Below, piece by piece: positions 1,924 to 15,776 of a stretch of 32,000 nucleotides of DNA. The stretch covers positions 60,001 to 92,000 of the forward strand of contig NZ_PQWO01000012.1 of the NCBI RefSeq assembly GCF_003231495.1, given 5' to 3'. A model generated the notes under the pieces. The model saw only the letters and a program-made list of their open reading frames with translations, searched no databases and was not told the origin of the DNA. The first letter of the stretch is position 1. Each line of letters begins with the position of its first letter. This stretch comes from Acaryochloris thomasi RCC1774. Its GTDB lineage: Bacteria; Cyanobacteriota; Cyanobacteriia; Thermosynechococcales; Thermosynechococcaceae. The position numbers and the translations under genes are program-made.

Positions 1924-2000
1924 TTTCCTTATCTAGAAATATAGAGGTCATTGAATAGAGTGATAGGTGCCCCCATTCGTTGTCTTGCTGAAGCATTGCC

Positions 2001-2930
2001 TCAAGAGAAAGCCTGCGTTGTCTCAGCAATCAGGTCATACCCATCAGGCCCTAACGTGCGCACGCTCTCTACAAAGTTGGGGTGGGTCATCCCTGCAACA
2101 AGAAAGGTTTGCTGATAGGAAACCGTTTGTTGTTGCTGAATCGCTTCTCTGTCAGTGAGAGAAAGCGATCGCTCGGTCACTCGCTCCAGACTGTCAATAT
2201 CGAGCTGCACCTGGTTTATCAGTCCTGCATTGAGGTACTGAATAACAGCGATGTAATCATCAATGCCGGTGGCAATGGCTGCAGCATCTAAGTCTCGGGC
2301 CATTGACTGCACCATCAGCGTATCGAGTCGAGCGTGTTGGGCTTCTTCCTGCCAGTGATGCTTTAACAGACTGCAGAACTGCGGATCGAGGTTCTCTCGC
2401 TGATTTTCACGCACGCTTTCGAGAAAGTGACGTTGGGTCATCCATTCAATGTGTAGTGTCATCAGAGCGACACCGAGAGAACTGTGCTGGAGAATGAAAC
2501 GGGCGATCGCCGATGATGGACCAATACAGTCATAAGGACTGCCGAACCCAGCTTCAAAAGCTTCTGCAAACCGACGGAACAAATGGATATGCTTGCTTTC
2601 TTCGCTTGCAACGCCCAGGAAAGCTTGAGTTGCTTCAATCTCATCACTGCCAATCGCCTGAATATGATTAACCACTAAGGGCAAGATGGCTTCCTCTAAA
2701 ACGCTAAATAAATATAAGTAGCTGTTGCCGCGAATCTGGTTGAGCTTAAGTTGCTCTGCAGAACTCAGGCTGGCGATGGCCCCTGTGTGAGCGAGTCCCT
2801 CAGGGAGGAAGGGTTTGAAAAAATCAAGCGAGTTTTTATCGTTAATCAAATCCTGGACACGCCAGTTGATTTTGGTCGCGTCTTTCAAGATTGATGAATA
2901 GGTATTGTCATAAGTTATAAGAGCGGCCAT
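2001..2930 (-). CDS. ferritin-like diiron oxygenase (AurF / N-oxygenase-like family)
   Basis: 309-aa helical ORF with two ExxH diiron motifs (ASEESKHIHLF and WQEEAQHARLD) plus additional conserved Glu (VLEEAIL, HIEWMTQRH). The layout resembles AurF-type diiron oxygenases. Confidence 0.7.
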   Translation of the reverse strand: MAALITYDNTYSSILKDATKINWRVQDLINDKNSLDFFKPFLPEGLAHTGAIASLSSAEQLKLNQIRGNSYLYLFSVLEEAILPLVVNHIQAIGSDEIEATQAFLGVASEESKHIHLFRRFAEAFEAGFGSPYDCIGPSSAIARFILQHSSLGVALMTLHIEWMTQRHFLESVRENQRENLDPQFCSLLKHHWQEEAQHARLDTLMVQSMARDLDAAAIATGIDDYIAVIQYLNAGLINQVQLDIDSLERVTERSLSLTDREAIQQQQTVSYQQTFLVAGMTHPNFVESVRTLGPDGYDLIAETTQAFS

Positions 2931-2996
2931 GAAACCTCTTGTTTTTGAGTGAAAGTTGCTGAGTTGCCGAAAGCGTGTTGCCTCAACCTTGATTTC

Positions 2997-3050
2997 AGGC
3001 TAGAGAAGAGGGCGTTCCCGAAGCGTTCTTGAAACGTTCCTGAGACGTCT
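2997..3050 (-). promoter_or_regulatory. candidate promoter plus activator operator: four 11-bp-phased direct repeats abutting a -10 box (site A)
   Basis: On the plus strand CGTTC occurs at 3013, 3024 and 3035, and CGTCT at 3046, in exact 11-nt phase. In gene sense the array ends ...GGGAACGC, followed by 9 nt (CCTCTTCTC) and TAGCCT (TAnnnT, plus 2997-3002). The start codon of the diiron oxygenase is at 2930. The block is nearly identical to 15876-15907. Confidence 0.6.
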
Positions 3051-3338
3051 GGTCCTATTGGGAACAGGCACTGTTATGCCTTCAAACTGGGGTTCTCCAA
3101 AGGCGGTAAAGTCATTGAGATTAAGCGGGTCGGCATTGCCCTTCTGCAGCACAGCCAGCTGAGTACTGCCAAGGCGGAGGGTCGCCTTGTTCGCTTACTG
3201 AATAACGTCAAGATCTTCAAAGAGGAGTCCGTTCGACAGTCCGATCGGGTCTACAACTGTTGGAGAATTCCAGACACAAAAAAGCCGCCCTGGAGAACGG
3301 CCTTGGTAAATCCAATTGCTCTAAAAAACAGAGTCTGA
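3033..3338 (+). pseudogene. possible remnant of a LysR-type regulator (C-terminal substrate-binding part only)
   Basis: A stop-to-stop frame of 101 codons contains no ATG, GTG or TTG. It translates to ...KVIEIKRVGIALLQHSQLSTAKAEGRLVRLLNNVKIFKEESVRQSDRVYNCWRIPDTKKPPWRTALVNPI. This resembles the LysR C-terminal pattern (GlGIalLP......l..GrLV.ll........ly.vwr....sp..raf). The HTH and first ~200 aa are absent. Confidence 0.3.
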
Positions 3339-3348
3339 AATACTATGC

Positions 3349-4101
3349 TCACGTCAGGTTGAGTCCACCATCAGAGAGTAATATCTCGCCTGTAATGTAG
3401 TGGCTCACAATTAACATAGAAGCCACTTGTGCGATTTCTTCTGGCTGTGCGCCTCGACCCATAGGCGCCCGCATCTTCCAAAGCTCTCTTGCGGCAGTCC
3501 AATTCTGGCTCATAGGGGTGTTCACTAGGCCGGGTGCGATCGCATTCACCCGAATCGATGGTGCCAAACTCACCGCCAGCAATTTGGTCATATGGTTCAA
3601 AGCAGCTTTACTGACCGAATAGGGAACCGAAGCTCCCTTCGGTCGAATCCCGGCATGGGAACTGATATTTAGAATGCAGCTTGGGCATTCCTGACTTGAG
3701 GACTGGCGCAACGCGGCTTCAGCTTCGGTGATCAGTGTCCACGGCGCAATGACGTTGACTTCATACAGATCGCGCCAGATTTCCGGCGATGCTTCTTTTA
3801 ATGCCGTATGGGGGATTGCGGCGGTCACGCCAGCATTATTAACCAATGCATCTAGGCGACCGTAATGAGATAAAACCTCAGCGATTAACTGACGAGCTTG
3901 ATCTTGATCTGATAGATCAGCTTGGAAATAGGAGGCATCTGGGTATGCCGCAGCTAATTCTCGCCCTGCCGTCACGGAGGATTTGGAATGAAAGGCAACA
4001 GCGAAGTTGTCTCGAGCGAGCTGAGCTGCGATCGCTTTTCCAATGCCAGAAGTTGAGCCCGTCACCAGCGCAACTCTTTTGGGGTCCTTATCTCTGATCA
4101 C
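3349..4101 (-). CDS. SDR family oxidoreductase (short-chain dehydrogenase/reductase)
   Basis: 250 aa with the cofactor motif VTGSTSGIGKAIA, NNAG, and the catalytic S...YSVSKAA (YxxxK). Confidence 0.9.
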   Translation of the reverse strand: MIRDKDPKRVALVTGSTSGIGKAIAAQLARDNFAVAFHSKSSVTAGRELAAAYPDASYFQADLSDQDQARQLIAEVLSHYGRLDALVNNAGVTAAIPHTALKEASPEIWRDLYEVNVIAPWTLITEAEAALRQSSSQECPSCILNISSHAGIRPKGASVPYSVSKAALNHMTKLLAVSLAPSIRVNAIAPGLVNTPMSQNWTAARELWKMRAPMGRGAQPEEIAQVASMLIVSHYITGEILLSDGGLNLT

Positions 4102-4285
4102 AACTTGGCGCTTCTCATTTTGCTAAACTCAACCGACCGAGCCGTCCCCTAGAACTGATTTCAAACTATTCAGACCGGCACTCTCAAAGTGTTCTCTGGA
4201 CTTTGCAGCAATTCTTACACCTGGAGGAAGATGCCAATACCACTTCGAGAATGGCTAATCAGAAGCTCTCTACTGATGCGATGAT

Positions 4286-4678
4286 CTAAGAATGAACCTC
4301 ACTGACAATCATTGCATCGATCTCCACGAGTTGATGCTCATAGGCCAGTCGCGCTACGCCCAGTAATGTAGCTGGGGGGACATCATTGTTGAACCACTCC
4401 GTAACCGCCTGCCATGCAGCCATGAGAGTTGGATGATCTCCAACGACGTAGATTTTTAGCTGGCGAATATCACGTTTATCAAAACCATGCAGCGTGATTA
4501 GCGTTCGCAAATTACCAAGGCACTGATTCACCTGAACATGGGGCTTGCCGATGCCAACCAGATTTGCCTCAGAATCGTGCGGCACCTGACCGGAAATGAA
4601 CAGTTGTGGACCAATGCGCTGAGCATATTGGTAGTTAGGAGTCTGGGCTAGCCCTGCTGCTATTTCATGCTCGTTCAC
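4286..4678 (-). CDS. RidA/YjgF/endoribonuclease L-PSP family protein
   Basis: 130 aa with LFISGQVP..., IKIYVVG and a C-terminal LVEIDAMI, typical of the RidA fold. Confidence 0.8.
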   Translation of the reverse strand: MNEHEIAAGLAQTPNYQYAQRIGPQLFISGQVPHDSEANLVGIGKPHVQVNQCLGNLRTLITLHGFDKRDIRQLKIYVVGDHPTLMAAWQAVTEWFNNDVPPATLLGVARLAYEHQLVEIDAMIVSEVHS

Positions 4679-4827
4679 TTCAGGTTCCTTGTTAGATTTT
4701 CAGCTTTGTGAGAGATCAAGAGTCTTTGGGCCTATTCTTTCGATTACGTTTGAGCTGAACGCTGGTTACTGAGGCTCAGTATTGCAGCCTTACTTGAACC
4801 GCAGAGGCTGAGCGCAAATCCTGAGCA

Positions 4828-5100
4828 TCAATGAGAGGCGGCGGCCACTGCAGGCGTAATCAGATCGACGGTCCAAATGCGGACAAAAGGTAGCCCAGCT
4901 TTACGAAAGGACCGCTGGACGGTCTCAGCATCAGGAGCCTCAAATTCACAGATGACCTGGGTGCGATCGCAACCCATCATCGACCTCACCCAGTGAACGT
5001 TGTGGGCTGTATGGCAAGGAATGCCAATGGCAACATCTCGGTCCCATTTTTCTGGTGTAATCGGTGGATCAAAATGCTTTTCAACAAGGACGCGGACCAT
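4828..5100 (-). CDS. DUF4242 domain protein (SCO4226-like small alpha/beta protein)
   Basis: 90 aa. The pattern ...HWVRSMMGCDRTQVICEFEAPDAETVQRSFRKAGLPFVRIWTV matches the DUF4242 consensus as I recall it (W..s..s.D......C.yeApd.e.vre...raglp.d.i.ev). Confidence 0.55.
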   Translation of the reverse strand: MVRVLVEKHFDPPITPEKWDRDVAIGIPCHTAHNVHWVRSMMGCDRTQVICEFEAPDAETVQRSFRKAGLPFVRIWTVDLITPAVAAASH

Positions 5101-5244: not shown

Positions 5245-8200
5245 CTAAGCTGTGTGGATAGGAGCGTCTAGCTGGGTCGATATATTTGCGATCGCAACTC
5301 TAGCCCGAGCAGCCAGACCCAGCGGATTTATTTTCTGCAGGTCTCGAAAATGCGTCTCAGCAAGCTCAAGCTCGCCAATTGCTAGATAACCCTGAATCAA
5401 CGTTGCCAACACCAGGGCAACATCACTAGGATGATCAACAACTCGGGCTGCCTCCAGCGCCATTTGGCATCGGGAGATAGCGCGTTGGGGTTCGCCTCGC
5501 TCCAAGTCTTTCTCCGCAGCGGACGTCAGCGTATAGGCCAGACTTCGCTGAGCATCGACGCATTTCAGCCTGTCTAACGTCTGTTCTAACTCCGTTTCAG
5601 CTTCTGAAGGCTGCAGCCAGTATTGCGATAAAGCCACCAGCGCCGCTGCAACAGCCCCTTCATTGCCACCGCCAAGCTGAGCGGCAACAGTCGTGAGTTG
5701 CCGACAATAATCTAATGCCGCAATCGCATTTCCGCTTTCAAGTTCTAGCATCGCTAAATATGAAACACAGGTGAATTCTCGCCAGTGATCCTGCATATAT
5801 TGGGCAATCTGCCGCGCCTGCGTCAGCAACAGACGCGCCTGCTCATCGTCACCGTGATACCGGCGAACACAGCCTAGCCCACAGGGAATATCGAAGGGTT
5901 CTAGCCCGACTCGACTAGCCAGAGATTGAGCCTCTAACAGCAGAGCCTCAGCCCGCTCCATCTCGCGGCCAATATCCGATAGACACCAGCCTGTATAGGC
6001 CAGCATTTGAGCCATCACGGTAGGACTTGCGCTGCGACCTTGTTCTACGGCCTTCAGACACTGTTGATGGACATCTGCGAGATTGTCTTGCTCATAGTGC
6101 AGCGCAATCAGAACTTCTAGCCCTAGAGCCTCTTCATCTGGCAGGCTGAGTCTTCGGGCCTCTAGCAGTAGCTGGTTCAAGCTGACTTCGACCTGCTGGG
6201 CCTGCACTTTATCCATCCCAGCCAGCACACAAACCTTGAGCAGACGCAAATGCAGACTGATTCGGACTTCAGGTGGTAAAGATTGGCACTGTTCAATCCC
6301 CCACCGCGCCAGTGCTGCGGCATCAGTATAGGCAAACAGGCGCAGGCCGCGTTCGGCTGCTGCCAGTAGAGATGTCGCGGCAAGTTCAGGATCCTGCCCT
6401 ATGGCTGCGTGACGGGCAATATCACTGGCTAAAGCGTCATCAGAACTCGTCAGTTTCTGTAGCTGGTGAGCGATATGTCGATGCATCAGCCGTCGACGAG
6501 GCTCAGAGGGTTGGCCATAGGCAACCTGTCGGACAACATCATGGGTAAAGAGATAGACCGCTTCACCGTCATCCCTAATGTCTGGACTGAGAATACCCTG
6601 CTGTTCTAGCTCTTCTATCGCGGTCAAGAAGGTTGTCAGCGGACAGTCCGCGATCTGAGCGACCTGCATTGGATCAAAGCTGCGCCCCATTGCTGCAGCC
6701 CAGGTCAAAAGATCCTGTGTAGAAGTGTCGAGCTGCTGCAGCCGCTCCTGAACTAGCGCCTCTAAGTTGTCAGCATCCGCTGAGTAGCCAGATGCGATCG
6801 TACGCGCAATTTCCAGGGCAAACAGGGGATTGCCACCGCTGTCGGTATAGATGCGATCGCTATCCAAATCCGCGTCAATGGTCTGGGTCAGCTCCGTCGT
6901 GGCCTGACGATCCAATGGCTCTAGGGGGATGACTTGGAGTTTGCGATCGCGTCTGAGCGTTTTCACGAGCTGACAAGCTGCGGCGTTGGCTTCCAGATCT
7001 CGGTGACGGGCTGCACAGGCAAACTGAATCGACGAGTGTCCCAACAGGCAAACAACATAGTTCAGCAGGGCCGTCGAAATTTCATCAAGCCATTGAATGT
7101 CGTCAAAAATGATCACCAGCGGGACTGACTGCTTCGCCAGCCCAGTCAGGTATTCAGCCACTGCATCGAAGAGGCGACTACGATCGATCTGAAGTTCCGG
7201 GTCACCCGGCTCAGGGAAGAGTGTTCCCAGTTCAGCAGGGAGCTGGCTAGGCAGCGCATCCAGCCAAATGCTGAAGGGCCTGACTTTTTCAGCTTCAAAC
7301 CCACGTCCCCAAAGCACCTGTCCCCCCATATCCTGGACCGCTGAACGCAGCGTTTCCAGAACTCGGGTTTTGCCAATGCCTGATTCTCCTAGCAACAGCA
7401 GAGATAAGTGAGAGCCGAGCCACCCTTGAATCATTTCCCATTCTTGCCGACGTCCGATGAGAGATGACGTTGAGGGTAGAGTCGCGAGTGGCTTCCCCTG
7501 AGAAGCGGCTATAGGAACGTTAGATATCTCAGCATTCGTCGCTGCAGCGGTCTTAATTTGCTCAACAGCACCCAACTGCTTGAGCGACATTCTCTGAGCT
7601 TCGGTTAGCCCCCTTGCATGGAGGATATTGGTTCTGTCATAGGGGCGCGCACCGCGCAGGACCGCCACACATTCGCCCGTTTCTCGGTCCCAGAGGTGAA
7701 CCGTTTCATCCTGGCTGCCGCTAGCCAGCAGGTGACCCTCAGGGCTAAAGGTTACGGCCCAAGCCAGATTGGTGTGTCCCTCCAAGGTCTGGAGACAGCC
7801 TCCTGTTCGTACATCCCAGAGCTTGACTGTTTTATCGCTGCTGGCGCTGGCGAGACATTGACCATCAGGACTAAAGGCCACGGACCACACCCGACTGCTG
7901 TGACCTTCGAGTGTTTTCAAGCACTGGCCCGTTTTCAGATTCCAGAGCTTGATGGAATGGTCTCCGCTACCGCTGGCGAGGTGTTGCCCATCGGGACTCA
8001 AGGCAATGGACCAGACCCAGTTGCTGTGCCCCTCAAGGGTCTGACAGCAGGCTCCCGTAAAAGGATCCCAAATTTTAATGGTTTGGTCATAGCCACCACT
8101 GACCAACCTGAGGGATTCGGCTGGGCAAAAAGCCACTGAACAGACCCAGTTTGTGTGCCCCTTCAACGTGCGTAAGCATTGGCCCGTATGGACATCCCAA

Positions 8201-11200
8201 AGTTTAATCGTTTGATCTTCACTGCCGCTGGCTAAGAGGCCCCCCTCTGGACTGAAGGCAACTGACCAAATCCTGCTGGTGTGTCCTTTCAAAGTCCGTA
8301 AACACTGGCCGGTCTCAAGATCCCAGAGCTTGATGGTTTGGTCTTCGCTGCCGCTGGCGATCAGATGATCTTGGGGACTGAATCTAACGGCACAGACGGC
8401 ATCGGTATGTCCTGACAGCGTTTGCCGATAGGTCGGTCCTTCTACATTCCACAGCTTGATCTGGTGGTCGTCATTGGCGCTTGCCAAAATGCCGCCGTAG
8501 GGATGTTGCGCAGAACCGGGACTGAAGGCAACGGACCAGACGCGATCAATATAGCCCTGGAGTGTTCTCTGGCACTGACCGTTGGTCCCCCATAGCTTGA
8601 CGGTGTTGTCACCACTGCCGCTAGCGAGGGTTTTTCCATCGGGGCTGAAGGCGACAGAGCGAATCCAGTTACCATGTCCTCGAAGGGTTTGACGACAGTT
8701 CCCTGAAGCGATTTGCCAGAGCCTGATGGTCCTATCTTCGCTGCCGCTGGCGAGGGTTTCTCCGTCAGGGCTGAAGGCAATGGAGCGCACCCAGTTGGTG
8801 TGTCCAGACAAGGTTTGAATACAGTGGCCGGTCTGAGTGTCCCAAAACTTGATCGTGCAGTCGCTGCTGCTGCTGGCTAGTCTGTTGCCTGAGGCATAGG
8901 CTAAGGACCACACCCGTTTTGAGTGCCCCTCTAGCGTCTGTTCACACCGTCCCGTTTCCGTCGCCCAGAACTTAATAGTTTGATCATCACTGCCGCTGGC
9001 GATTGTTTTCCCGTTGGGGCTGAAGGTGACGGAGCGCACCCAGTCGGTATGGCCGGTTAGGGTCTGGTGACAGGCTCCTGTTTCTAAGTCCCAGAGCTTG
9101 ACGGTGTGATCTTCGCTGGCGCTGGCGAGGAGGGGTGTTGTGGGGTGGAAGGCCACTGACCAGACTTGAGCTTTGTGATCAAACGTTTGCCGACATTGAC
9201 CTGTTTCTAGATCCCAGAGTTTGATGGTGCGATCGCTACTCCCGCTCGCCACAGTACCGCCATCGGGACTAAAGGCCACGGACCAGATCCAGTCTGTATG
9301 TCCCGAACAAATAAGCAGATTTCGGCCATCCTCAACGCTCCAGATGCGAATCTCACCTTTCGCATCTCCAGTGGCTAGACGTGTTCCATCAGGGCTGAAC
9401 GCTAGTGCTAGCGGCAAGCTCAGCGTTTCTATAAAGGCAGCCTGAGACAGATCAGCCTCCTGTAGGTTGCAGTCGGATAAATGAACCCGACGTAAATCGG
9501 CCTGCCGCAGCGCTAGTCCTGAGAAGTCATAGTGCTCCAAGACCGGGCTGGACTGGCTCAGCAGATTGAGAATGTTGCCCGCCGCGTAGCTCGACTGTAA
9601 GGTGGGATCGCTGTGCAGCCCCGCCAGAGCCTGACGCAAGCAGGGTTCACTGTTCGCCTCGCTGCCGCACTGACCGGACAAACCGTTGAGGACCGGCTGC
9701 AGAATCTCTCGAATTTGAATTTCGCGAATGTAGTCGCTACTCTGAGCCTTGAGCAAAGTATGGGTGCAGAAAAGGGCGGTGGCAGATAGATTCTCCTGCT
9801 CTGCTTCCGTCTCTGAAACTTGACCAAGAGTCAAAATCTCATGGCAAACCTGGTCTACAAGCTGTGCAGTAACGTACTCCATAACCACTGGCTGTTGGGC
9901 ATAGCGGCCTGCTTGTTTTTCAAGTAGCGATCGCCACATCAGCGACTCCAGGGCTTCTAGGAGTGCCGACCGCGAGGTTTGAGGCACAAGATCTTCGGCG
10001 AGTTCAGCAATCGCAGTCCACTCCCGGTTGATGGCTAACCAATACATGACCGATTGCTCTAGGGGCGTGCAGCGCTGGAACTGCTGTTCTAATAGTTGAT
10101 GAATACCGCTGAAGATGCCTGCGCCGGGTCGATGGAAGGCGGCAATGTCACCATCAAACAAGTCTTGAATGGAGGTGGCGACAATTTTTAGGGCCAAGGG
10201 ATTGTGGCCGTAGAACTGGCACAGGTCCTGCTGCTGTTGTTCTGTTCCGATCAGACCCTTGGTCTGGACCAGGGTCATCGCGGCTTCTGGCGAACCATTC
10301 AATAGGAGCGATCGCACCGGCAGATCCATGCCCTCTAATGCAGAAAATTCTCGCGGCTTCTCGCGGCTGGTGAGGATCAAGCAGCTTTGATGGTGGGTCT
10401 CTCCCATCAACCGCAGGAGTTCTCCGTAGTTTTCGTAGCCGGGGTGATACTGTCCAGAGCGCTGGTCTCCTTTTAAAAGCGTTTCAACGTTGTCTAGAAT
10501 CAGCAGGCATCGGGTCTGACGCAGGCCATCCATCAAACGAGCTAAGGTTGGCTCTGTTTCCTGCTGGTCAGAGATAATGGGGACGATCTCACCCATTAGG
10601 GTTTCTAGGCTAGGGGCATTCCGCAGAGATCGCCAAACAATGCAGTCAAATTTATCGTCAGCATCAGACCCTAATTGAGAATGCTCAACGAGGACCTGTG
10701 CTAGCTTCACCGATAGGGACGTCTTGCCAATACCGCCCATGCCTAGCAAGACAATGACGCGACAGCGATCCGCCAGGGTCCACTGCTCCAGCATTTCTAG
10801 TTCATCGGCACGTCCATAGAAGAGGCTGACATCCGGAGCGTTTCCCCAGTCGCAGCGTAGAGAGGAAGCTCCTGTTGATGTCTCGGAGGCTGATCGGTGG
10901 ACCTCTACGTATCTATCTTGCTGGGCATTTTGGTGATTTGTTAATAACGCTGGTTCGTCGAGGAGATGTTGATAGAAGGCTTGAATTGATTGACTGGGGT
11001 CGATTCCTAGCTCTTCTTGTAGGGTCGTCATGCAGCGATGATAGACCTGCAGGGCTTGGGTGCGGTCGCCGTTGGCGAGATGCGATCGCATCAAGTATTC
11101 ATAAGCAGTTTCACTCAGCGGATCCATCTGCAGAAGCTGCTGGGCATAGCGAATCACCTGGCTATGGTCTCGCTGTATCTGCAAAAGCTGCAGCAGCCCT

Positions 11201-11772
11201 GCATAAGCTTGAATGCAGGATTGATGGAGTCGCTCGCGCTCAGCTTCAATCCACTCGTCATAGCAGCTCGGCAGTAATTTCCCTTCATAGAGCTTGACTG
11301 CCTGCTGCAGAGCTGAGCCAATTGTTTTCAACTGCTCGGGCTGACGGGTTACAAGCTCATCTGACTGATCGACGAACAAAGAGACAGCTCGCTCAAACTC
11401 ATTGACATCAAGGGTATAGGGAGACTCTAAACGCCACTGGATGGACTGTGTGTCAACCGCAATGAACTGCTCTGAATCTGGAAAAACCTGGCGCAGAGAA
11501 TGGAGATTTCGTCGCAGGTTCGTTCGCGCCTGCGAGTCACTGGAGTCTGGCCAGAGGCGAAATGCAATCTGCTGTCGAGATTGAGGCGTATGTCGATGCA
11601 GCAGCAAGTAGGCCAGCAGGGACTGCAGCCGCTTCGGTATCTTCCCACCGATGGACTTTTGTTTGTAGATCAGGTCAAAGCCACCTAAGAATCTTATTCG
11701 TAAGATTTTTGGCACACTCACATACCTTCTTGAAACGGTGGAAGCTTCAAGTGGATAGCCCCACGATCTCAT
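5245..11772 (-). CDS. giant STAND regulator: SARP (OmpR-type wHTH + BTAD), NB-ARC, pentapeptide, 14 WD40 repeats, fused to a second AAA_16 P-loop and TPR-like module
   Basis: Single 2175-codon ORF.
- wHTH+BTAD, about 10945-11715: ILRIRFLGGFDL...LLAYLLLHRHTPQSRQQIAFRLWPD...LRRNLHSLRQ, then LYEGKLLP..YDEWIEAERERL...ALQVYHRCMTTLQEELGIDPS.
- NB-ARC: Walker A GMGGIGKT at 10720-10743 and Walker B CLLILDNVE.
- Pentapeptide-like tract at 9435-9531.
- WD40 array at 7650-9411.
- Second P-loop LLLLGESGIGKT at 7366-7389 and Walker B LVIIFDDIQWLDE at about 7085-7122.
- Helical/TPR-like tail from about 6500 down to 5245.
The true start may be the GTG at 11715 (AGAAGG lies 9 nt upstream), which would give (M)PKILRIRFLGG. 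Confidence 0.9.
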   Translation of the reverse strand: MRSWGYPLEASTVSRRYVSVPKILRIRFLGGFDLIYKQKSIGGKIPKRLQSLLAYLLLHRHTPQSRQQIAFRLWPDSSDSQARTNLRRNLHSLRQVFPDSEQFIAVDTQSIQWRLESPYTLDVNEFERAVSLFVDQSDELVTRQPEQLKTIGSALQQAVKLYEGKLLPSCYDEWIEAERERLHQSCIQAYAGLLQLLQIQRDHSQVIRYAQQLLQMDPLSETAYEYLMRSHLANGDRTQALQVYHRCMTTLQEELGIDPSQSIQAFYQHLLDEPALLTNHQNAQQDRYVEVHRSASETSTGASSLRCDWGNAPDVSLFYGRADELEMLEQWTLADRCRVIVLLGMGGIGKTSLSVKLAQVLVEHSQLGSDADDKFDCIVWRSLRNAPSLETLMGEIVPIISDQQETEPTLARLMDGLRQTRCLLILDNVETLLKGDQRSGQYHPGYENYGELLRLMGETHHQSCLILTSREKPREFSALEGMDLPVRSLLLNGSPEAAMTLVQTKGLIGTEQQQQDLCQFYGHNPLALKIVATSIQDLFDGDIAAFHRPGAGIFSGIHQLLEQQFQRCTPLEQSVMYWLAINREWTAIAELAEDLVPQTSRSALLEALESLMWRSLLEKQAGRYAQQPVVMEYVTAQLVDQVCHEILTLGQVSETEAEQENLSATALFCTHTLLKAQSSDYIREIQIREILQPVLNGLSGQCGSEANSEPCLRQALAGLHSDPTLQSSYAAGNILNLLSQSSPVLEHYDFSGLALRQADLRRVHLSDCNLQEADLSQAAFIETLSLPLALAFSPDGTRLATGDAKGEIRIWSVEDGRNLLICSGHTDWIWSVAFSPDGGTVASGSSDRTIKLWDLETGQCRQTFDHKAQVWSVAFHPTTPLLASASEDHTVKLWDLETGACHQTLTGHTDWVRSVTFSPNGKTIASGSDDQTIKFWATETGRCEQTLEGHSKRVWSLAYASGNRLASSSSDCTIKFWDTQTGHCIQTLSGHTNWVRSIAFSPDGETLASGSEDRTIRLWQIASGNCRQTLRGHGNWIRSVAFSPDGKTLASGSGDNTVKLWGTNGQCQRTLQGYIDRVWSVAFSPGSAQHPYGGILASANDDHQIKLWNVEGPTYRQTLSGHTDAVCAVRFSPQDHLIASGSEDQTIKLWDLETGQCLRTLKGHTSRIWSVAFSPEGGLLASGSEDQTIKLWDVHTGQCLRTLKGHTNWVCSVAFCPAESLRLVSGGYDQTIKIWDPFTGACCQTLEGHSNWVWSIALSPDGQHLASGSGDHSIKLWNLKTGQCLKTLEGHSSRVWSVAFSPDGQCLASASSDKTVKLWDVRTGGCLQTLEGHTNLAWAVTFSPEGHLLASGSQDETVHLWDRETGECVAVLRGARPYDRTNILHARGLTEAQRMSLKQLGAVEQIKTAAATNAEISNVPIAASQGKPLATLPSTSSLIGRRQEWEMIQGWLGSHLSLLLLGESGIGKTRVLETLRSAVQDMGGQVLWGRGFEAEKVRPFSIWLDALPSQLPAELGTLFPEPGDPELQIDRSRLFDAVAEYLTGLAKQSVPLVIIFDDIQWLDEISTALLNYVVCLLGHSSIQFACAARHRDLEANAAACQLVKTLRRDRKLQVIPLEPLDRQATTELTQTIDADLDSDRIYTDSGGNPLFALEIARTIASGYSADADNLEALVQERLQQLDTSTQDLLTWAAAMGRSFDPMQVAQIADCPLTTFLTAIEELEQQGILSPDIRDDGEAVYLFTHDVVRQVAYGQPSEPRRRLMHRHIAHQLQKLTSSDDALASDIARHAAIGQDPELAATSLLAAAERGLRLFAYTDAAALARWGIEQCQSLPPEVRISLHLRLLKVCVLAGMDKVQAQQVEVSLNQLLLEARRLSLPDEEALGLEVLIALHYEQDNLADVHQQCLKAVEQGRSASPTVMAQMLAYTGWCLSDIGREMERAEALLLEAQSLASRVGLEPFDIPCGLGCVRRYHGDDEQARLLLTQARQIAQYMQDHWREFTCVSYLAMLELESGNAIAALDYCRQLTTVAAQLGGGNEGAVAAALVALSQYWLQPSEAETELEQTLDRLKCVDAQRSLAYTLTSAAEKDLERGEPQRAISRCQMALEAARVVDHPSDVALVLATLIQGYLAIGELELAETHFRDLQKINPLGLAARARVAIANISTQLDAPIHTA
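7650..9411 (-). repeat. intragenic array of 14 WD40 repeat units (~126 nt each, two predicted 7-bladed propellers)
   Basis: Fourteen units fit GH(T/S)xW(V/I)xSVAFSPDGxxLASGSxDxTIKLWDxxTGQCxxTL. Each ends in (I/V)(K/R/H)(L/F/I)W: IRIW, IKLW, VKLW, IKFW, IKFW, IRLW, VKLW, IKLW, IKLW, IKLW, IKIW, IKLW, VKLW, VHLW. Neighbouring units look only about two-thirds identical at nucleotide level by eye. Confidence 0.9.
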
Positions 11773-12087: not shown

Positions 12088-12648
12088 TTATTTGGATACG
12101 GGGAGTGTCGTTGACTCTCCAGTTGACGCGTCTAGACCGACAGGCTGGTTGAAAGTCAGGCTTATCGTTGCTCTCTTCTCAACATCAAGTGACCCTTCTT
12201 GAATGAATTGGCTCTCGCGAACTGTTCCTTTGCGTGCCCGTTGATCATTGTGATAAATGTCTCCTGTCTCTAGGTCGTACTCTAGCTCTAGCGCGACACC
12301 GTCAAAAAAGCTGATGTCAACAGGCTCATCATTTTGAGGTCCGTCGTTGTCATATAGCTCAACCCGAATCGGCACCCTAGCTTTTGAAGTCTGTTTTGTC
12401 TGAGTGAGGTCGAATCCGGCTGAATTAAAATTATTACGGCCTTGATCGGAACCTATTTCCTGATCGTCGACAAAGAGCACGGCTTTCAACTCAGATCGTC
12501 GCTCAGTTTTATTATCAACTTCATCGAAAATTATCCTGGGGTCAGTATCGGTACGAACAACGCTGAACGTTCTGGTTGATCGAGATTGTGCTCGTGCGCC
12601 TCCTTTAGCGAGAGTTGGTGTAGAGCTAACTAACGCAGGAAGAGCCAT
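12088..12648 (-). CDS. hypothetical secreted protein (no family recognised)
   Basis: 186-aa ORF from the first canonical start. The in-frame upstream codons (to 12687/12696) encode a textbook Sec signal peptide, so the real start is probably non-canonical (see findings). The mature part is acidic and beta-rich (VELYDNDGPQNDEPVDISFFDGVALELEYDLETGDIY). The gene is lower in GC than its neighbours by eye. Confidence 0.6.
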   Translation of the reverse strand: MALPALVSSTPTLAKGGARAQSRSTRTFSVVRTDTDPRIIFDEVDNKTERRSELKAVLFVDDQEIGSDQGRNNFNSAGFDLTQTKQTSKARVPIRVELYDNDGPQNDEPVDISFFDGVALELEYDLETGDIYHNDQRARKGTVRESQFIQEGSLDVEKRATISLTFNQPVGLDASTGESTTLPVSK

Positions 12649-12744: not shown

Positions 12745-12792
12745 AAGGTATTTAGCTAGGCGTTATAAAAGAATTTTAGAAGCGTCCAGTAA
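12745..12792 (-). promoter_or_regulatory. possible weaker third copy of the 11-bp-repeat promoter (site C)
   Basis: On the plus strand GCGTTATAAAA lies at 12760-12770 (8/11 to GCGTTCCCAAA) and GCGTCCAGTAA at 12782-12792, 22 nt later, resembling the distal aCGTCCTGAG unit of site B. The middle unit is not conserved. In gene sense, 9 nt after the proximal repeat lies TACCTT (TAnnnT, plus 12745-12750), the same geometry as sites A and B. Confidence 0.3.
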
Positions 12793-12916
12793 ATGTTTTA
12801 TGATGTCTTTTGTTCGCAAAATATAATTAATTTAGAGGTGAAGCTTGCCCCAAATCTTGCTAAAGAATACAGATAGAAACGAAATAAATTTTATTAGAAA
12901 AAGTATATTCTTCTCC

Positions 12917-12943
12917 AAAAAAAAGCCCTCCTTGATGGAGGGC
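12917..12943 (-). terminator. Rho-independent terminator downstream of the HMGL-like gene
   Basis: Minus-strand reading is GCCCTCC-atcaa-GGAGGGC followed by TTTTTTTT. On the plus strand the A8 run is 12917-12924 and the stems are 12925-12931 and 12937-12943. It lies 74 nt after the stop at 13017. Confidence 0.75.
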
Positions 12944-13016
12944 GCACACAGGATATATCAAAAGTAGGGATAGTGGTGCGTTAGTACAGACCCCTAGTCT
13001 AGGTTTTACGTATTCT

Positions 13017-13847
13017 TTAAATTCTCCCAGACATTATATTGGTCACCTGCTCTGCAGCTTGCTCAAGCAGATCGGTCTTAACATTGGTGTAGTAATCAGG
13101 ATGCTTTGCGATCGCATCTAAAATTCCTCCTAAATCTGCATTCCCCTTCCTCACCCCTAGACCCTTGATCGAACACCCAACTTGTCGAGCACCGGCCTGA
13201 ATCGCCGCCAGCGAATTCTCAACCGCCAGCCCGCGATCGTCACGGCAGTGAACAGAAAGCGTCACCTGATCAATATTGGGCACCTGCCTTTTGAGTAAAG
13301 CAATGAGGCCTGCGAATGATTCCGGTTCAGCCACACCCGCCGTATCAGGAATATTGATTGTCGTTGCCCCACCCTCAATCGCCGTTTCCACCGCACAGCA
13401 GAGAAATTCTGGTTCACTCTTGAGGGCATTGAAAGCTGACCACTCTATGTCAAAAGAATAGTTGCGGGCGAGGACAAGGGTCTGACGGATCAGTTCTAGA
13501 AGTGCTGATCGGTTGAAAATGGCCTTCTGCTGCACTGGCGTGTAGACATGAATCCGCCCTCGTGCAGCAGACCGTAGGGCAAGGGCGACATCAATGACTT
13601 CATCAGGCTTGGAGCCTGCCAAACCACAAATGGCGGTCTGCTTGATCCGTTTTGAAACCATCAGCAGCTCATCAAAGTCTTTGCGGAAGGCACCGGGATA
13701 GCCGGCCTCAATCACATCAATCTGCATTTTTTCAAGTAATTCGGCAATTTGAACCTTTTGATAGAGCGTCATTCTCACCCCCGGCATCCGTTCACCGTCC
13801 CGGAGGGTGGTGTCAAAAATTGTAATTTTCGATGGAGAAGCCGTCAT
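13017..13847 (-). CDS. HMGL-like / 2-isopropylmalate-synthase-like TIM-barrel protein, truncated and with degenerate catalytic motifs
   Basis: MTASPSKITIFDTTLRDGERMPG...IDVIEAGYPGA...INIPDTAGVAEP...SVHCRDDRGLAVENSLAAIQAGA...GLGVRKGNA matches the LeuA/HMGL family backbone. I place the start at the ATG at 13847. The track ORF begins at a TTG at 13946, adding a Cys/Arg-rich 33-aa extension that is unlikely to be real. Confidence 0.75.
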   Translation of the reverse strand: MTASPSKITIFDTTLRDGERMPGVRMTLYQKVQIAELLEKMQIDVIEAGYPGAFRKDFDELLMVSKRIKQTAICGLAGSKPDEVIDVALALRSAARGRIHVYTPVQQKAIFNRSALLELIRQTLVLARNYSFDIEWSAFNALKSEPEFLCCAVETAIEGGATTINIPDTAGVAEPESFAGLIALLKRQVPNIDQVTLSVHCRDDRGLAVENSLAAIQAGARQVGCSIKGLGVRKGNADLGGILDAIAKHPDYYTNVKTDLLEQAAEQVTNIMSGRI

Positions 13848-13942
13848 AACAATGGGGAACACAGTATGGGGGAAAGGCGTTGAGCAACCACCGCGCTCAT
13901 GGATCCTTGATCGACGGGCCAGTCGACCGCACAGGCAGTCAC

Positions 13943-14533
13943 TCAACTCTGGAGCGCTGGGGGGTAGCGCACCATTGGGAAAATAGGAGGAGAATCGTTC
14001 ACCTGGATAGTGGTCAGCACCTCAAATCCGTGGCGTTCGTAGAAGGGAATGTTGTCGGGATTGGATGATTCAAGATAGGCCAGTTGGGCGTTGCGATCGC
14101 ACTCCCTCAGCACAGGCTCCATCAGGGCAGATCCGTGTCCTCTACGCTGCTGTTCTGGTTCAACGCCCAGCAATGCCAAATACCAGTGGGGCGCTTCAGG
14201 ATGACAGTTGCTCATCGCTTCGAATAGAGCAAACACGGTGTCTAGATCGGGGGAAACAGTTCGCTGAAGCAGAGTATTGAGAGCCTGATTTTCGGGATAG
14301 CTCCCCGGTGCCTGCCACAGCGCAGTTCCAGCGTTATTCTCAGCGGCATATGCCGTATCGGCATCAAAGGCAGTTCCACCTAACAACTGCACAAAATCAG
14401 GGAAGTACGTAAGGTACTGATGGGAGTTGGGATAAAGCCAACGCACTGCCGGATCGGTGCGAAAAGCAAGTACTAAAGCATCGATCATCGCATCCACTTT
14501 AGTGCTTGGTTCTCTGAGGGAGAGGGCTGTCAT
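13943..14533 (-). CDS. GNAT family N-acetyltransferase
   Basis: 196 aa with the acetyl-CoA binding core LLGVEPEQQRRGHGSALMEPVL...AYLESSNPDNIPFYERHGFEV. Confidence 0.85.
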   Translation of the reverse strand: MTALSLREPSTKVDAMIDALVLAFRTDPAVRWLYPNSHQYLTYFPDFVQLLGGTAFDADTAYAAENNAGTALWQAPGSYPENQALNTLLQRTVSPDLDTVFALFEAMSNCHPEAPHWYLALLGVEPEQQRRGHGSALMEPVLRECDRNAQLAYLESSNPDNIPFYERHGFEVLTTIQVNDSPPIFPMVRYPPALQS

Positions 14534-14699
14534 GATCTTGATCTCCTAAAGATTGGTCGTGGGTAGCAGGGCCTGACTTCAAACCTTGGCGATGATCTGT
14601 TACTACTAAGGTTGAGAACTGGCTCGTGTCCAGCAGTGACGCCGAAGAAAGCAGAGCGTTGGAGTAACGCTGTCCGATGCGGCAAATTTGGCACATGCT

Positions 14700-15776
14700 T
14701 TAGCTCTTTTTGACGATGTAGAAATTATTCTGAAAGTCGTGGTCGAGCTGCTTGATTTCCACTTGCTTGAATCCGGCCTCTTCTAGCATCTCTAGCGCTT
14801 TTTCTTCTCCCCACATGGCTCCAAGCCCCAAGCCCCCAGCGGCGAGAGAAACGGTCATGCAGTGCAGACAAGAGATGGTGTAAAGCAATGGCCCAACTGG
14901 ATGCTCTAGGTTCCCGCTCACGTCACTAGCGGCGCGAATATCCTGCATGAAGTAGGTACCGTTGGGTCGTAAGGCCCGGTAGATGTTATTGAGGACCACA
15001 TCAGGTTTGGCCTGATCGTGGATTGCATCAAAGGTGGTGATCAAGTCGTACTGCTCGACAGCATCCAGGGTCGCGGCATCCTTGATCTGGAACCGGACGT
15101 TGGTCAACCCTTGGGACTGCGCTTCAATGTTGGCAGTTGCGATCGCTTCTTCCGAAAAATCATACCCAGTAAAGCGACTGTGAGGGAACAGCATCGCCAT
15201 CTGATTGAGAGCACGACCGCTACCGCAGCCAACATCCATAACCTCAATGCCGCGCTCTAAAGCATCAACCAAACCGGGCATGAGGGGCAAAACATGCTCC
15301 ATTAATGCTGCAACGACCGTTTGGCCACTATCTTCGGCCATCACTTGGTGAAAGCGCTTATATTCTGAATAGGGAACGCCACCGCCGCTGTAGAAGCAGT
15401 CGATTACTTGGTCTTCAACGCTGCCCAGTAGTGGAATGTACTGACTAAATGCTGCCAAATTATTGGGGGAGGCAGTGCGGGTCAAGAAGGCCGCATGTTC
15501 TGACGGCAGATGATAGGTTTGCTCGATGGCGTTATAGTCCACAAATCTTGCGGTTACCATTGCCCCCAGCCACTCGCGGACGTAACGTTCTTGCAGTCCA
15601 GCAGCATCAGCAACGGCCTGACTTGTCGCAGGAGGGAGCTGAGCTAGGGTATCAAATAGACCGGTACGGTGACCGATGGAGGTCATAAGTGCGACTGCAC
15701 CACCGTTGAGCGTATCTAGAAGCCGATCGGCAAAAGCTTCGGCTTTCATCTCCTTGAACACTTGTGCTGTCATCAT
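14700..15776 (-). CDS. class I SAM-dependent methyltransferase with N-terminal winged-helix-like domain (Rv2258c-like)
   Basis: 358 aa with motif I VMDVGCGSGRAL, an acidic loop YDFSEEA, and post-I/II motifs DLITTFDAIHD and LRPNGTYFM. The N-terminal ~150 aa form a helical dimerisation/wHTH-like region. Confidence 0.85.
   Translation of the reverse strand: MMTAQVFKEMKAEAFADRLLDTLNGGAVALMTSIGHRTGLFDTLAQLPPATSQAVADAAGLQERYVREWLGAMVTARFVDYNAIEQTYHLPSEHAAFLTRTASPNNLAAFSQYIPLLGSVEDQVIDCFYSGGGVPYSEYKRFHQVMAEDSGQTVVAALMEHVLPLMPGLVDALERGIEVMDVGCGSGRALNQMAMLFPHSRFTGYDFSEEAIATANIEAQSQGLTNVRFQIKDAATLDAVEQYDLITTFDAIHDQAKPDVVLNNIYRALRPNGTYFMQDIRAASDVSGNLEHPVGPLLYTISCLHCMTVSLAAGGLGLGAMWGEEKALEMLEEAGFKQVEIKQLDHDFQNNFYIVKKS

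What the first reader, a model, noticed from the sequence alone, without database searches (positions are those of the whole stretch)
2001..15776. Hypothesis: a cluster-situated SARP-STAND regulator with flanking target operons forms a compact sensory-regulatory module of unknown output
Inference from the observations above. The only protein in the window with an OmpR/SARP-type DNA-binding domain is the 2175-aa STAND protein. The repeat promoters lie on either side of its gene, 2.2 kb downstream of its stop codon and 4.1 kb upstream of its start.

The predicted targets are small-molecule-modifying enzymes:
- an AurF-like diiron oxygenase, possibly read through into the OsmC and esterase genes
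- a SAM methyltransferase, a GNAT acetyltransferase and a catalytically degenerate HMGL/IPMS-like protein
- possibly a secreted protein

In actinomycetes, SARPs are pathway-specific activators located inside the clusters they control. An analogous arrangement in a cyanobacterium has not, to my knowledge, been described, particularly one gated by two NTPase switches with WD40 and TPR sensors. The enzymes do not match a pathway I recognise.
Basis: inference. Interest (0 to 1): 0.75.

Follow-up and report, generated by a model that had tools for sequence, protein, structure and literature searches.

The report
Cyanobacterial SARP-type activator and its promoters
A giant cyanobacterial switch protein carries the DNA-binding head of the Streptomyces antibiotic activators (SARPs), and the promoter boxes beside it recur next to related proteins in many cyanobacteria, which points to an undescribed SARP regulon outside the actinomycetes.

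Summary
A 2175-aa protein (5245-11772, minus strand) has the order SARP (wHTH+BTAD), NB-ARC, 14 WD40 repeats, AAA_16, TPR. Two promoters on the same strand each carry three 11-bp direct repeats (rGAACGyTT), with a TAnnnT -10 hexamer 9 nt after the last GGAACGC. This is the published SARP/AfsR promoter geometry.

Comparative genomics links the box to the SARP domain. Among 78 cyanobacterial loci, boxes occur in 15 of 17 that encode this SARP domain and in 1 of 61 that do not (p=5e-13). The same box sits beside SARP genes on high-GC metagenome contigs. Orthologues of the predicted targets lie behind boxes in other genera: the Rv2258c-like methyltransferase, the AurF-like protein, the HMGL-like protein and the 186-aa protein.

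- The SARP domain sits N-terminal or C-terminal to NB-ARC-WD40 in different genomes.
- The window protein looks like a fusion of that type with an AfsR-like AAA_16-TPR regulator.
- A SCO4226-like gene always follows the AAA_16-TPR part.

The "cluster-situated, pathway-specific" reading is not supported. No core biosynthetic genes are present, targets differ between genomes, and boxes also occur far from any regulator. Binding itself is untested. I rate this a new variant of a known kind.

The parts
5245..11772 (-). Regulator gene, 2175 aa: SARP, NB-ARC, WD40, AAA_16, TPR
   Evidence: The ORF is. Both Walker A motifs are intact (GMGGIGKT at aa 344, GESGIGKT at aa 1462). The Walker B motifs are CLLILDNV and LVIIFDDI. 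The closest full-length relatives are a 2160-aa protein in MAG P01_A01_bin.17 (L166) and a 2117-aa protein in Oculatella LEGE 06141 (L003).
10933..11712 (-). SARP domain (OmpR-type winged helix plus BTAD), aa 21-280
   Evidence: BTAD scores E 2.5e-25. A PDB sequence search finds AfsR at E 1e-9 and EmbR at E 2e-7. The AF2 model (pLDDT 92.8) matches AfsR and EmbR with TM 0.69-0.82. The recognition-helix stretch SQARTNLRRNL is conserved in all relatives that carry GGAACG boxes.
9823..10821 (-). NB-ARC/NACHT-type STAND NTPase module, aa ~318-650
   Evidence: Pfam finds NB-ARC and NACHT. The module is 54-66% identical to the NB-ARC modules of 78 cyanobacterial loci.
7603..9465 (-). WD40 repeat region (14 repeats), aa ~770-1390; presumed sensor
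   Evidence: Pfam WD40 gives 14 stretches at E 2.7e-167.
5248..7464 (-). Second STAND module, AAA_16 P-loop NTPase plus TPR-like helical repeats, aa ~1437-2175
   Evidence: AAA_16 scores E 4.6e-19 and TPR_12 is present. The module is 42-49% identical to the AAA_16-TPR part of AfsR-like SARP-AAA_16-TPR proteins that are encoded separately in L002 and L157.
4828..5100 (-). SCO4226-like small protein (90 aa), a conserved partner gene directly downstream of the AAA_16-TPR module
   Evidence: Pfam PF14026 scores E 1.9e-14. The gene directly follows the AAA_16-TPR-encoding gene in all 7 loci examined: window, L002, L003, L044, L063, L157 and L166.
15861..15904 (-). Box B: three 11-bp repeats plus the -10 TAAATT; promoter of the methyltransferase operon
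   Evidence: Sequence and match are. The PWM score is 43.1 bits. Orthologous boxes lie upstream of the methyltransferase in L003, L044, L063, L067, L069, L157 and L171. L108 carries a box about 2 kb upstream of a methyltransferase orthologue, with another ORF in between.
14700..15776 (-). Rv2258c-like SAM methyltransferase; the most widely conserved box-driven gene
   Evidence: Pfam finds HTH_65 and Methyltransf_31. PDB 5f8c (named only 'Methyltransferase' there) matches at E 3.6e-120. The protein is 71-83% identical across cyanobacterial orders.
13017..14533 (-). GNAT acetyltransferase (13943-14533) and truncated HMGL/IPMS-like protein (13017-13946), overlapping by 4 nt; probably read through from box B
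   Evidence: Pfam assignments are. Against IPMS 3rmj, RDGEQ becomes RDGER, HCH becomes HCR, GERAGN becomes GVRKGN, and the protein is 309 aa where NCBIfam's IPMS models are about 500-520 positions. In L001 a box directly precedes the HMGL-like orthologue. A strong terminator lies at 12943-12925.
12745..12788 (-). Degenerate third box (20.2 bits) in front of the 186-aa gene
   Evidence: The PWM scan gives no hit at or above 14 bits in the reversed-sequence control. In L001 a strong box (45.3 bits) precedes the orthologue.
12088..12648 (-). 186-aa protein with no family assignment; homologues are secreted
   Evidence: Pfam and NCBIfam find nothing. Homologues in L001, L007 and L034 have a signal peptide; the window copy does not.
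2997..3040 (-). Box A: three 11-bp repeats plus the -10 TAGCCT; promoter of the AurF-like operon
   Evidence: Sequence and match are. The PWM score is 49.6 bits. The box is conserved in L166 (49.2 bits). A 41-bit box heads the operon that contains the AurF-like orthologue in Leptolyngbya (L167, L168, L174).
287..2930 (-). AurF-like di-metal protein (2001-2930), OsmC-like protein (1354-1923), hormone-sensitive-lipase-type esterase (287-1270)
   Evidence: Family assignments are. The AF2 model (pLDDT 92.1) is closest by TM-score to AurF 2jcd (0.68) and CmlI; R2lox gives the best E-values. The E/ExxH ligands are invariant. AurF-like/OsmC adjacency is conserved in L166, L167, L168 and L174. No terminator-like site was found between the three genes.
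3349..4678 (-). RidA-family protein (4286-4678) and SDR (3349-4101), co-directional with the regulator; probably not core parts
   Evidence: Pfam assignments are. In the sister genome L166, RidA is absent and only a 3' SDR remnant is left. A terminator lies at 3304-3281. A marginal 14.5-bit box at 4206 is not relied on.

Best explanation
The 2175-aa protein is a large SARP-family transcription activator of the AfsR type. It is a STAND NTPase whose output is an OmpR-type winged helix plus BTAD.

**Proposed mechanism (inferred by analogy, not shown).**
1. In the resting state the NTPase and repeat modules hold the SARP domain inactive.
2. Ligand sensing by the WD40 and/or TPR repeats, together with ATP binding, releases it or drives oligomerisation.
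3. SARP protomers then bind side by side to the three (sometimes four) 11-bp repeats rGAACGyTTnn.
4. Taking a start site about 7 nt after the -10 hexamer, the repeats occupy roughly -50 to -18 and take the place of a -35 element.
5. The bound protomers recruit RNA polymerase to the TAnnnT -10.

**Transcription units this would switch on in the window.**
- Box B: the Rv2258c-like methyltransferase, probably with GNAT and the HMGL-like protein.
- Box A: the AurF-like protein, OsmC and probably the esterase.
- A degenerate box: weakly, the 186-aa gene.

**Origin of the protein.** It looks like a fusion of two regulator types that are encoded separately in other cyanobacteria: SARP-NB-ARC-WD40, and AfsR-like SARP-AAA_16-TPR. 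The latter is always followed by a SCO4226-like gene. On this reading, two sensor modules feed one DNA-binding head.

**Scope.** The box is shared by the whole SARP clade. The window therefore shows a local part of a wider regulon, not a private pathway cluster.

**What is shown and what is inferred.** Shown here: the domains, the fold, the box geometry, the co-occurrence and the conservation of targets. Inferred: binding, activation, ligand control and the output chemistry.
For: 1. **SARP identity.** Pfam finds BTAD. A PDB sequence search finds AfsR and EmbR. The AF2 model matches AfsR and EmbR by Foldseek with TM 0.69-0.82.
2. **Promoter geometry.** The published rule for SARP promoters is direct repeats spaced 11 bp apart with the 3' repeat 8 bp from the -10. 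The afs box consists of two 11-bp repeats at -40 to -19 (PMC10936776). Both window sites fit this rule, and neither has a recognisable -35.
3. **The box is real and conserved.** Seeding only with the window consensus, 23 sites with the -10 geometry were found in the 78 loci plus the window. The reversed-sequence control gave 0. With the PWM at 14 bits or more, the counts are 36 and 0.
4. **Co-occurrence with the SARP domain.** Boxes occur in 15 of 17 SARP-bearing loci and in 1 of 61 NB-ARC-WD40 loci without SARP (Fisher p=4.8e-13). In 8 of 11 loci with a C-terminal SARP, a co-directional box lies downstream of the regulator's stop codon. The distance is within about 275 nt in seven loci and 1.7 kb in L058.
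5. **Same box outside cyanobacteria.** It sits next to SARP genes on high-GC metagenome contigs L088, L107 and L115.
6. **Rosetta-stone evidence.** SARP is fused N-terminal or C-terminal to NB-ARC-WD40 in different genomes, and to AAA_16-TPR in others.
7. **Targets recur behind boxes elsewhere.** This holds for the methyltransferase, the AurF-like operon, the HMGL-like protein and the 186-aa protein.
8. **Hint of co-variation.** L004 has recognition helix EAKANLRRRL and GGACG boxes. L006 has a SARP only 27% identical, recognition helix QALKNLRTVL, and a different triple repeat, AGATCGCCAAG.
9. **Precedent for the control step.** In AfsR the NOD and TPR domains inhibit the SARP domain, and ATP binding relieves this (PMC10936776 abstract).
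Against: - No binding or expression data exist.
- The loci compared were chosen by homology to the regulator's N-terminal 650 aa (SARP plus NB-ARC), and most matched through NB-ARC only. The sample is therefore not random genome sequence. The PWM was trained on sites from the same loci, although the first scan was not.
- Several SARP paralogues with near-identical recognition helices can occur in one genome (L001, L002). Which paralogue serves sites A and B cannot be assigned from a 32-kb window.
- In the window the boxes are 2.2 and 4.1 kb from the gene, further than in most relatives.
- Two SARP-bearing loci (L006, L025) have no GGAACG box within reach.
- Kovacikia's methyltransferase and Oculatella's AurF-like gene have no box.
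- The Trans_reg_C Pfam match is below the curated cut-off.
- The output chemistry and the sensed signal are unknown.
Confidence: 0.66

Rival explanations
1. The boxes are genuine SARP boxes, but sites A and B are served mainly by another SARP paralogue encoded elsewhere in the Acaryochloris thomasi genome (a small SARP, an AfsR-like protein or an NB-ARC-WD40-SARP protein). The 2175-aa protein would then regulate other sites or be redundant.
For: Paralogues share the recognition helix and the box. Two SARP-STAND genes occur within 20 kb in L001 and in L002. Strong boxes work at a distance from any regulator gene, as in L027, L167/L168, L171 and L174. The clade is large, with 1,252 cluster representatives at E<=1e-30.
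Against: The regulator-SCO4226-box A-AurF-like order is kept in the sister genome L166. In Oculatella the orthologous 2117-aa gene is divergently adjacent to the box-driven methyltransferase. Boxes lie within a few hundred bases of the regulator gene in most relatives.
Confidence: 0.2
2. The repeats are bound or read by something other than a SARP. Candidates are an OmpR-family response regulator, the winged-helix domain of the Rv2258c-like methyltransferase (autoregulation), or an ECF-type sigma factor that reads GGAAC as a -35.
For: OmpR-family proteins also use direct repeats with 10-11 bp spacing (general knowledge). The box is tightly linked to the methyltransferase gene even where no SARP is nearby (L171). 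GGAAC resembles ECF -35 elements (my own knowledge).
Against: The window encodes no OmpR-type regulator or ECF sigma factor. Many boxes have no methyltransferase nearby, as in L001, L002, L005, L031 and L058. Three equally conserved repeats with helical phasing, plus a conserved sigma-70-type TAnnnT at fixed distance, do not fit an ECF promoter. The box follows SARP genes into high-GC, non-cyanobacterial contigs. The co-occurrence statistic also argues against this.
Confidence: 0.07
3. The repeats are non-functional sequence: a chance or mobile repeat that happens to lie in two intergenic regions.
For: Most exact matches to the three-repeat pattern in metagenomes are plain tandem 11-mers unrelated to promoters.
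Against: There were 0 hits in shuffles or reversed controls. The -10 hexamer and the start-site region are conserved at fixed spacing across genera, while the flanks differ. The boxes always point into a downstream gene.
Confidence: 0.02

Closest known systems
AfsR of Streptomyces coelicolor (large SARP: SARP-NOD-TPR)
   Same: It has the same SARP fold (TM 0.69-0.82), a P-loop STAND NTPase and a TPR-like C-terminus. Its target promoters also carry 11-bp direct repeats that replace the -35, with the last repeat about 8 bp from the -10. In AfsR the NOD and TPR domains inhibit the SARP domain until ATP binds (PMC10936776).
   Different: Here an Apaf-1-like NB-ARC plus 14 WD40 repeats lies between the SARP domain and the AAA_16-TPR module, giving two NTPase modules. 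The sites have three or four repeats where the afs box has two. The box sequence is rGAACGyTT. The host is a cyanobacterium. SARP sequence identity is only about 20%. No AfsK-type kinase link was examined.
Small SARPs and SARP-LAL regulators (ActII-ORF4, DnrI, PimR): cluster-situated activators of antibiotic gene clusters
   Same: They share the DNA-binding head and the repeat-type promoters. The regulator gene lies near its targets.
   Different: There is no biosynthetic core (PKS, NRPS, terpene synthase and the like) in the neighbourhood. Targets vary between genomes. Boxes also occur about 1 Mb from the regulator. The protein behaves like a regulon-level factor and does not look pathway-specific.
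STAND transcription factors MalT and GutR
   Same: They follow the same logic: an ATP- and ligand-dependent STAND switch controls an attached DNA-binding domain that binds arrays of repeated boxes (cited as non-immune STANDs in PMC13581612).
   Different: They have a LuxR-type HTH at the C-terminus and small-sugar ligands. They have no WD40 module and only one NTPase module.
Cyanobacterial Apaf-1-like NB-ARC-WD40 STAND proteins
   Same: The NB-ARC-WD40 core is 54-66% identical to dozens of cyanobacterial proteins. PMC13581612 reports that the closest Apaf-1 homologues are in cyanobacteria.
   Different: [quoted passage not shown] Here the attached domain is a transcription activator, placed at the N- or the C-terminus.

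Membership tests
SARP family (OmpR-type wHTH + BTAD transcription activators) | N-terminal OmpR-type winged helix-turn-helix followed by a BTAD helical domain | tested here: met
   BTAD scores E 2.5e-25. Trans_reg_C is weak (21.3 bits against a 26.2 cut-off). The AF2 model (pLDDT 92.8) aligns over about 260 columns to AfsR and EmbR with TM 0.69-0.82. phmmer finds AfsR at E 1e-9.
SARP family (OmpR-type wHTH + BTAD transcription activators) | Target promoters with direct repeats spaced 11 (or 22) bp apart, the 3' repeat about 8 bp from the -10 (PMC10936776) | tested here: met
   Sites A and B have 3 x 11-bp repeats. The last GGAACGC heptamer is 9 nt (the 8-mer is 8 nt) from TAnnnT. The same geometry holds in 23 sites across genomes.
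SARP family (OmpR-type wHTH + BTAD transcription activators) | Sequence-specific binding to the repeats and activation of transcription | not testable with these tools
   Only indirect evidence is available: box/SARP co-occurrence in 15 of 17 loci against 1 of 61. EMSA, DAP-seq or in-vitro transcription is needed.
AfsR-like large SARP / STAND NTPase regulators | P-loop STAND NTPase with intact Walker A and B motifs, followed by a repeat-type sensor domain | tested here: met
   There are two such modules. The first is NB-ARC (GMGGIGKT; CLLILDNV) with 14 WD40 repeats. The second is AAA_16 (GESGIGKT; LVIIFDDI) with TPR. ATP binding and hydrolysis were not tested.
AfsR-like large SARP / STAND NTPase regulators | Canonical domain order SARP-NOD-TPR in a protein of about 1,000 aa | tested here: not met
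   The order here is SARP-NB-ARC-WD40-AAA_16-TPR in 2175 aa. Canonical SARP-AAA_16-TPR relatives exist as separate genes in L002 and L157. Among the 150 nearest cluster representatives only one other protein exceeds 2,000 aa.
Cluster-situated (pathway-specific) regulator of a biosynthetic gene cluster | Lies inside a cluster with core biosynthetic enzymes and controls only that cluster | tested here: not met
   The neighbours are single tailoring or detoxification-type enzymes with no core synthase. Box-driven genes differ between genomes. Strong boxes occur without an adjacent regulator.
OmpR-family two-component response regulator | N-terminal receiver (REC) domain with a phospho-acceptor Asp | tested here: not met
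   There is no Response_reg match in the 2175-aa protein.
Anti-phage STAND systems (Avs / bNACHT and similar) | Match to a known defence-family model, or an effector domain of nuclease, protease or NADase type | tested here: not met
   PADLOC gives only a match in the WD40 repeat region (aa 787-980) to an unnamed model, HEAT-ARM_XIII, and a marginal P-loop match. The attached domain is a transcription activator. Defence-island context was not assessed.

The most novel reading that the evidence does not exclude
An Apaf-1-like NB-ARC-WD40 receptor of cyanobacteria uses a SARP transcription activator as its effector domain. Detection of a protein ligand (phage, damage or a neighbour-cell signal) would then be converted directly into transcription of a dispersed regulon of secreted RTX-type proteins and small-molecule-modifying enzymes. 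This would be a transcriptional arm of NLR-like sensing in bacteria. In Acaryochloris thomasi, Oculatella and at least one other lineage, a second, AfsR-type ATPase-TPR sensor is fused on, so that two inputs are integrated on one DNA-binding head.
Probability: 0.15. Interest if true: 0.8.

Novelty: new variant of a known kind. Interest (0 to 1): 0.6.

Why it matters
SARPs are treated almost entirely as actinomycete antibiotic regulators. This analysis yields several testable predictions for cyanobacteria:

- **A defined box.** The predicted site is three copies of rGAACGyTT at 11-bp spacing, ending 9 nt before the -10.
- **A candidate regulon.** Its most conserved member is a methyltransferase that is 71-83% identical across cyanobacterial orders and has no known function.
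- **A family of regulators.** In these proteins the SARP head is joined to Apaf-1-like NB-ARC-WD40 sensors in either orientation.

Together these give a direct experimental handle on what the abundant NB-ARC-WD40 proteins of filamentous cyanobacteria sense. The natural double-sensor fusion is a ready-made case for studying how two STAND switches control one output. The box could also serve as an inducible promoter part if the signal is found.

Tried and rejected
- **Exact look-ups of window proteins.** These failed for the methyltransferase as read from the window and for its 357-aa database form, P0241. The source was identified only through that 100%-identical database entry named Acaryochloris thomasi.
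- **PDB sequence search with the winged helix alone.** It found nothing useful. The full SARP domain and the fold search were needed.
- **Metagenome scan with the exact three-repeat pattern.** It returned 87 contigs, most of them plain tandem 11-mers. Only about 15 look like real box-plus-(-10) promoters.
- **PADLOC, Rfam and tRNA scans.** None found anything relevant to the module.
- **Marginal fourth box at 4206 (14.5 bits) upstream of the SDR gene.** Not relied on.
- **L006 triple repeat AGATCGCCAAG.** It may be a simple tandem duplication, and its -10 geometry is imperfect. I treat it only as a hint of co-variation.
- **ECF-sigma promoter reading.** Considered and rejected; see the rival explanations.
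- **Autoregulation through the methyltransferase's winged helix.** Considered and rejected; see the rival explanations.
- **A unifying chemistry for the targets (sulfur, selenium or metalloid methylation, or peroxide detoxification).** Considered, but no test supports it.

Full report
**Source and layout.** The window is cyanobacterial: GCGATCGC (HIP1) repeats are frequent and GC is about 51%. Its methyltransferase is 100% identical to an entry named Acaryochloris thomasi. All genes from 287 to 15776 are on the minus strand. In the direction of transcription the order is:
- box B, Rv2258c-like methyltransferase, GNAT, truncated HMGL/IPMS-like protein, strong terminator (12943-12925);
- a 186-aa protein with no family assignment;
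- the 2175-aa regulator, a SCO4226-like protein, RidA, SDR, terminator (3304-3281);
- box A, AurF-like protein, OsmC, esterase.

**Observation check.** They are BTAD (E 2.5e-25) after a weak OmpR-type winged helix, NB-ARC/NACHT, 14 WD40 repeats, AAA_16 and TPR. Both P-loops are intact. An AlphaFold2 model of aa 1-290 (pLDDT 92.8) has AfsR and EmbR as its six best PDB matches, with TM 0.69-0.82. A PDB sequence search also finds AfsR at E 1e-9.

Sites A (3040-2997) and B (15904-15861) each hold three 11-bp direct repeats. A TAnnnT hexamer follows 9 nt after the last GGAACGC. The two-repeat pattern occurs 4 times against 0.07 expected. No other scanned ORF in the window has an OmpR/SARP-type DNA-binding domain.

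**Geometry.** The AfsR paper states the rule for SARP promoters: direct repeats 11 or 22 bp apart, with the 3' repeat 8 bp from the -10. The afs box is two 11-bp repeats at -40 to -19 that overlap the -35 (PMC10936776). If the start site is taken as about 7 nt after the -10 hexamer, the window repeats fall at about -50 to -18. That places them in the same position as the afs box, plus one extra upstream repeat. No sigma-70-like -35 was found at either site.

**Related loci.** A genome scan with the regulator's N-terminal 650 aa returned 78 cyanobacterial loci. I seeded a scan with only the window consensus (GGAACGCTT three times at 11-bp spacing, plus TAnnnT). This found 23 sites in these loci plus the window, and none in the reversed-sequence control. 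The pooled repeat unit is rGAACGyTTnn, and all three repeats are equally conserved. A PWM built from these sites gives 36 hits at 14 bits or more, against 0 in the control.

A profile search shows that 17 of the 78 loci encode this SARP domain. Boxes occur in 15 of these 17 and in 1 of the 61 others (Fisher p=4.8e-13). This is the main evidence that the SARP domain is what reads the box.

There are two caveats. The loci were selected through the regulator, and the PWM was trained on them. The first, untrained scan already shows the same split.

**Independent support.** A metagenome scan for the exact three-repeat pattern mostly returned plain tandem 11-mers. It also returned a cyanobacterial contig, L157, on which one strand carries, in order:
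- a 1045-aa SARP-AAA_16-TPR gene;
- a SCO4226-like gene;
- a four-repeat box;
- the methyltransferase gene.

The scan also found high-GC contigs on which the same box with the -10 geometry lies beside SARP genes of 29-41% identity (L088, L107, L115).

**Architectures.**
- SARP-NB-ARC-WD40: L001 (two copies), L002, L004 and L006.
- The reverse order, NB-ARC-WD40-SARP, with the SARP domain at the C-terminus, in eleven loci. These are L025, L031, L032, L044, L057, L058, L060, L063, L067, L069 and L074. In eight of them a co-directional box lies downstream of the stop codon, within about 275 nt in seven and 1.7 kb away in L058.
- AfsR-like SARP-AAA_16-TPR: L002 and L157.
- The five-part form, seen only in the window, its sister MAG L166 (2160 aa), Oculatella L003 (2117 aa) and one 2169-aa database protein.
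- L001's 1497-aa protein ends in a 90-aa AAA_16 remnant.

These permutations argue for a functional coupling between the SARP domain and the STAND modules. They also suggest that the window protein arose by fusion. The gene for the SCO4226-like protein directly follows the AAA_16-TPR-encoding gene in all 7 cases examined. I therefore count it as part of the module.

**Targets.** Methyltransferase orthologues (62-73% identical) lie behind boxes in L003, L044, L063, L067, L069 and L157. The same holds in Chroococcidiopsis CCMEE 29, which has a four-repeat, 41.8-bit box and no SARP gene within 10 kb. On metagenome contig L108 a box lies about 2 kb upstream of a 72%-identical orthologue, with another ORF in between.

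The AurF-like/OsmC pair is behind box A in L166. In Leptolyngbya IPPAS B-1204 and NK1-12, a 41-bit box heads an operon of S-methyltransferase, AurF-like protein, OsmC, an unassigned ORF, GNAT and SnoaL. NK1-12 encodes an NB-ARC-WD40-SARP protein about 1 Mb away from that operon.

In L001, boxes precede the HMGL-like orthologue and the 186-aa orthologue. The window has a degenerate 20-bit box before its own 186-aa gene. Other box-driven genes are RTX calcium-binding proteins, a SulP fragment, MFS, GNAT, enoyl-CoA hydratase and a PPIase. Kovacikia's methyltransferase and Oculatella's AurF-like gene have no box.

**Checks on the enzymes.**
- The AurF-like protein's Pfam match is sub-threshold. 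Its model (pLDDT 92.1) is closest by TM-score to AurF (0.68) and CmlI, and by E-value to R2lox. The carboxylate and histidine ligands are invariant.
- The HMGL-like protein has changes at conserved IPMS motifs. Against 3rmj these are RDGEQ to RDGER, HCH to HCR, and GERAGN to GVRKGN. It is 309 aa where NCBIfam's IPMS models are about 500-520 positions, so 'degenerate' is reasonable.
- The methyltransferase carries the Rv2258c-like HTH_65 domain and is closely related to PDB entry 5f8c (E 3.6e-120).

**Interpretation.** The best reading is an AfsR-like, ATP-gated SARP activator that reads a clade-wide box, by analogy with AfsR. The analogy to cluster-situated, pathway-specific SARPs fails for three reasons: there are no core biosynthetic genes, the targets vary, and some sites act in trans.

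Which paralogue serves sites A and B cannot be settled from 32 kb. Synteny in L166 and Oculatella favours the adjacent gene.

PADLOC gives no defence-family match. A recent STAND survey treats AfsR-type regulators as non-immune and notes that cyanobacteria hold the closest Apaf-1 homologues (PMC13581612).

Four full-text searches found no description of a cyanobacterial SARP regulon. The clade itself is large: 58,620 cluster representatives at E<=1e-3, most of the nearest being about 1,000-1,100 aa with an N-terminal SARP.

**Verdict.** I rate this a new variant of a known kind, with interest about 0.6.

Noticed in passing
window 22540-24544 (minus strand): An arsenosugar biosynthesis pair: radical-SAM ArsS (TIGR04167, 417 bits against a 300 cut-off) and arsenite methyltransferase ArsM (NF038099, 577 bits against a 400 cut-off). 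Two VTT/DedA-domain membrane proteins follow at 21052-22497.
   Followed up: partly
window 26438-26882 (plus strand): Two tandem copies of a 188-nt segment, 93% identical (26460-26647 and 26695-26882). Each encodes a Psb34 (ssl1498-family) photosystem II assembly protein of about 56 aa, so this is a recent tandem gene duplication.
   Followed up: partly
L166 7598-8285 compared with window 3349-4678: In the sister genome (MAG P01_A01_bin.17), RidA is absent and only the 3' end of the SDR gene remains, with an in-frame stop. The RidA-SDR pair is therefore dispensable and has recently been lost or gained between close relatives.
   Followed up: partly
window 3045-3280: About 230 nt between the SDR terminator and box A has no ORF longer than 50 aa and no Rfam match. 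The stretch is conserved in L166. It could be a gene remnant or an upstream regulatory region.
   Followed up: no
L057 6364(-)/6429(+); L058 15645(-)/15895(+): Nodosilinea-type loci carry two boxes back to back on opposite strands, which makes a divergent SARP-dependent promoter pair. In L057 the minus-strand box points at the 3' end of the regulator gene, only about 170 nt away. This may drive an antisense or small transcript.
   Followed up: no
L088 about 1745-2185 (plus strand); L162 about 1520-1910 (minus strand): On two high-GC metagenome contigs the box precedes homologous small, cysteine-rich proteins with a signal peptide (CCCPxxAW...). This may be a further conserved SARP target outside cyanobacteria.
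   Followed up: no
L007 4575-5126; L034 2314-2841: Homologues of the 186-aa protein, with signal peptides, also lie near NB-ARC-WD40 genes that have no SARP domain and no box. This suggests a link between this protein family and NB-ARC-WD40 genes that does not depend on the SARP domain.
   Followed up: no
window 29476-30483: A REC-GGDEF response regulator (diguanylate cyclase). It is the only receiver-domain protein in the window and is unrelated to the boxes.
   Followed up: no
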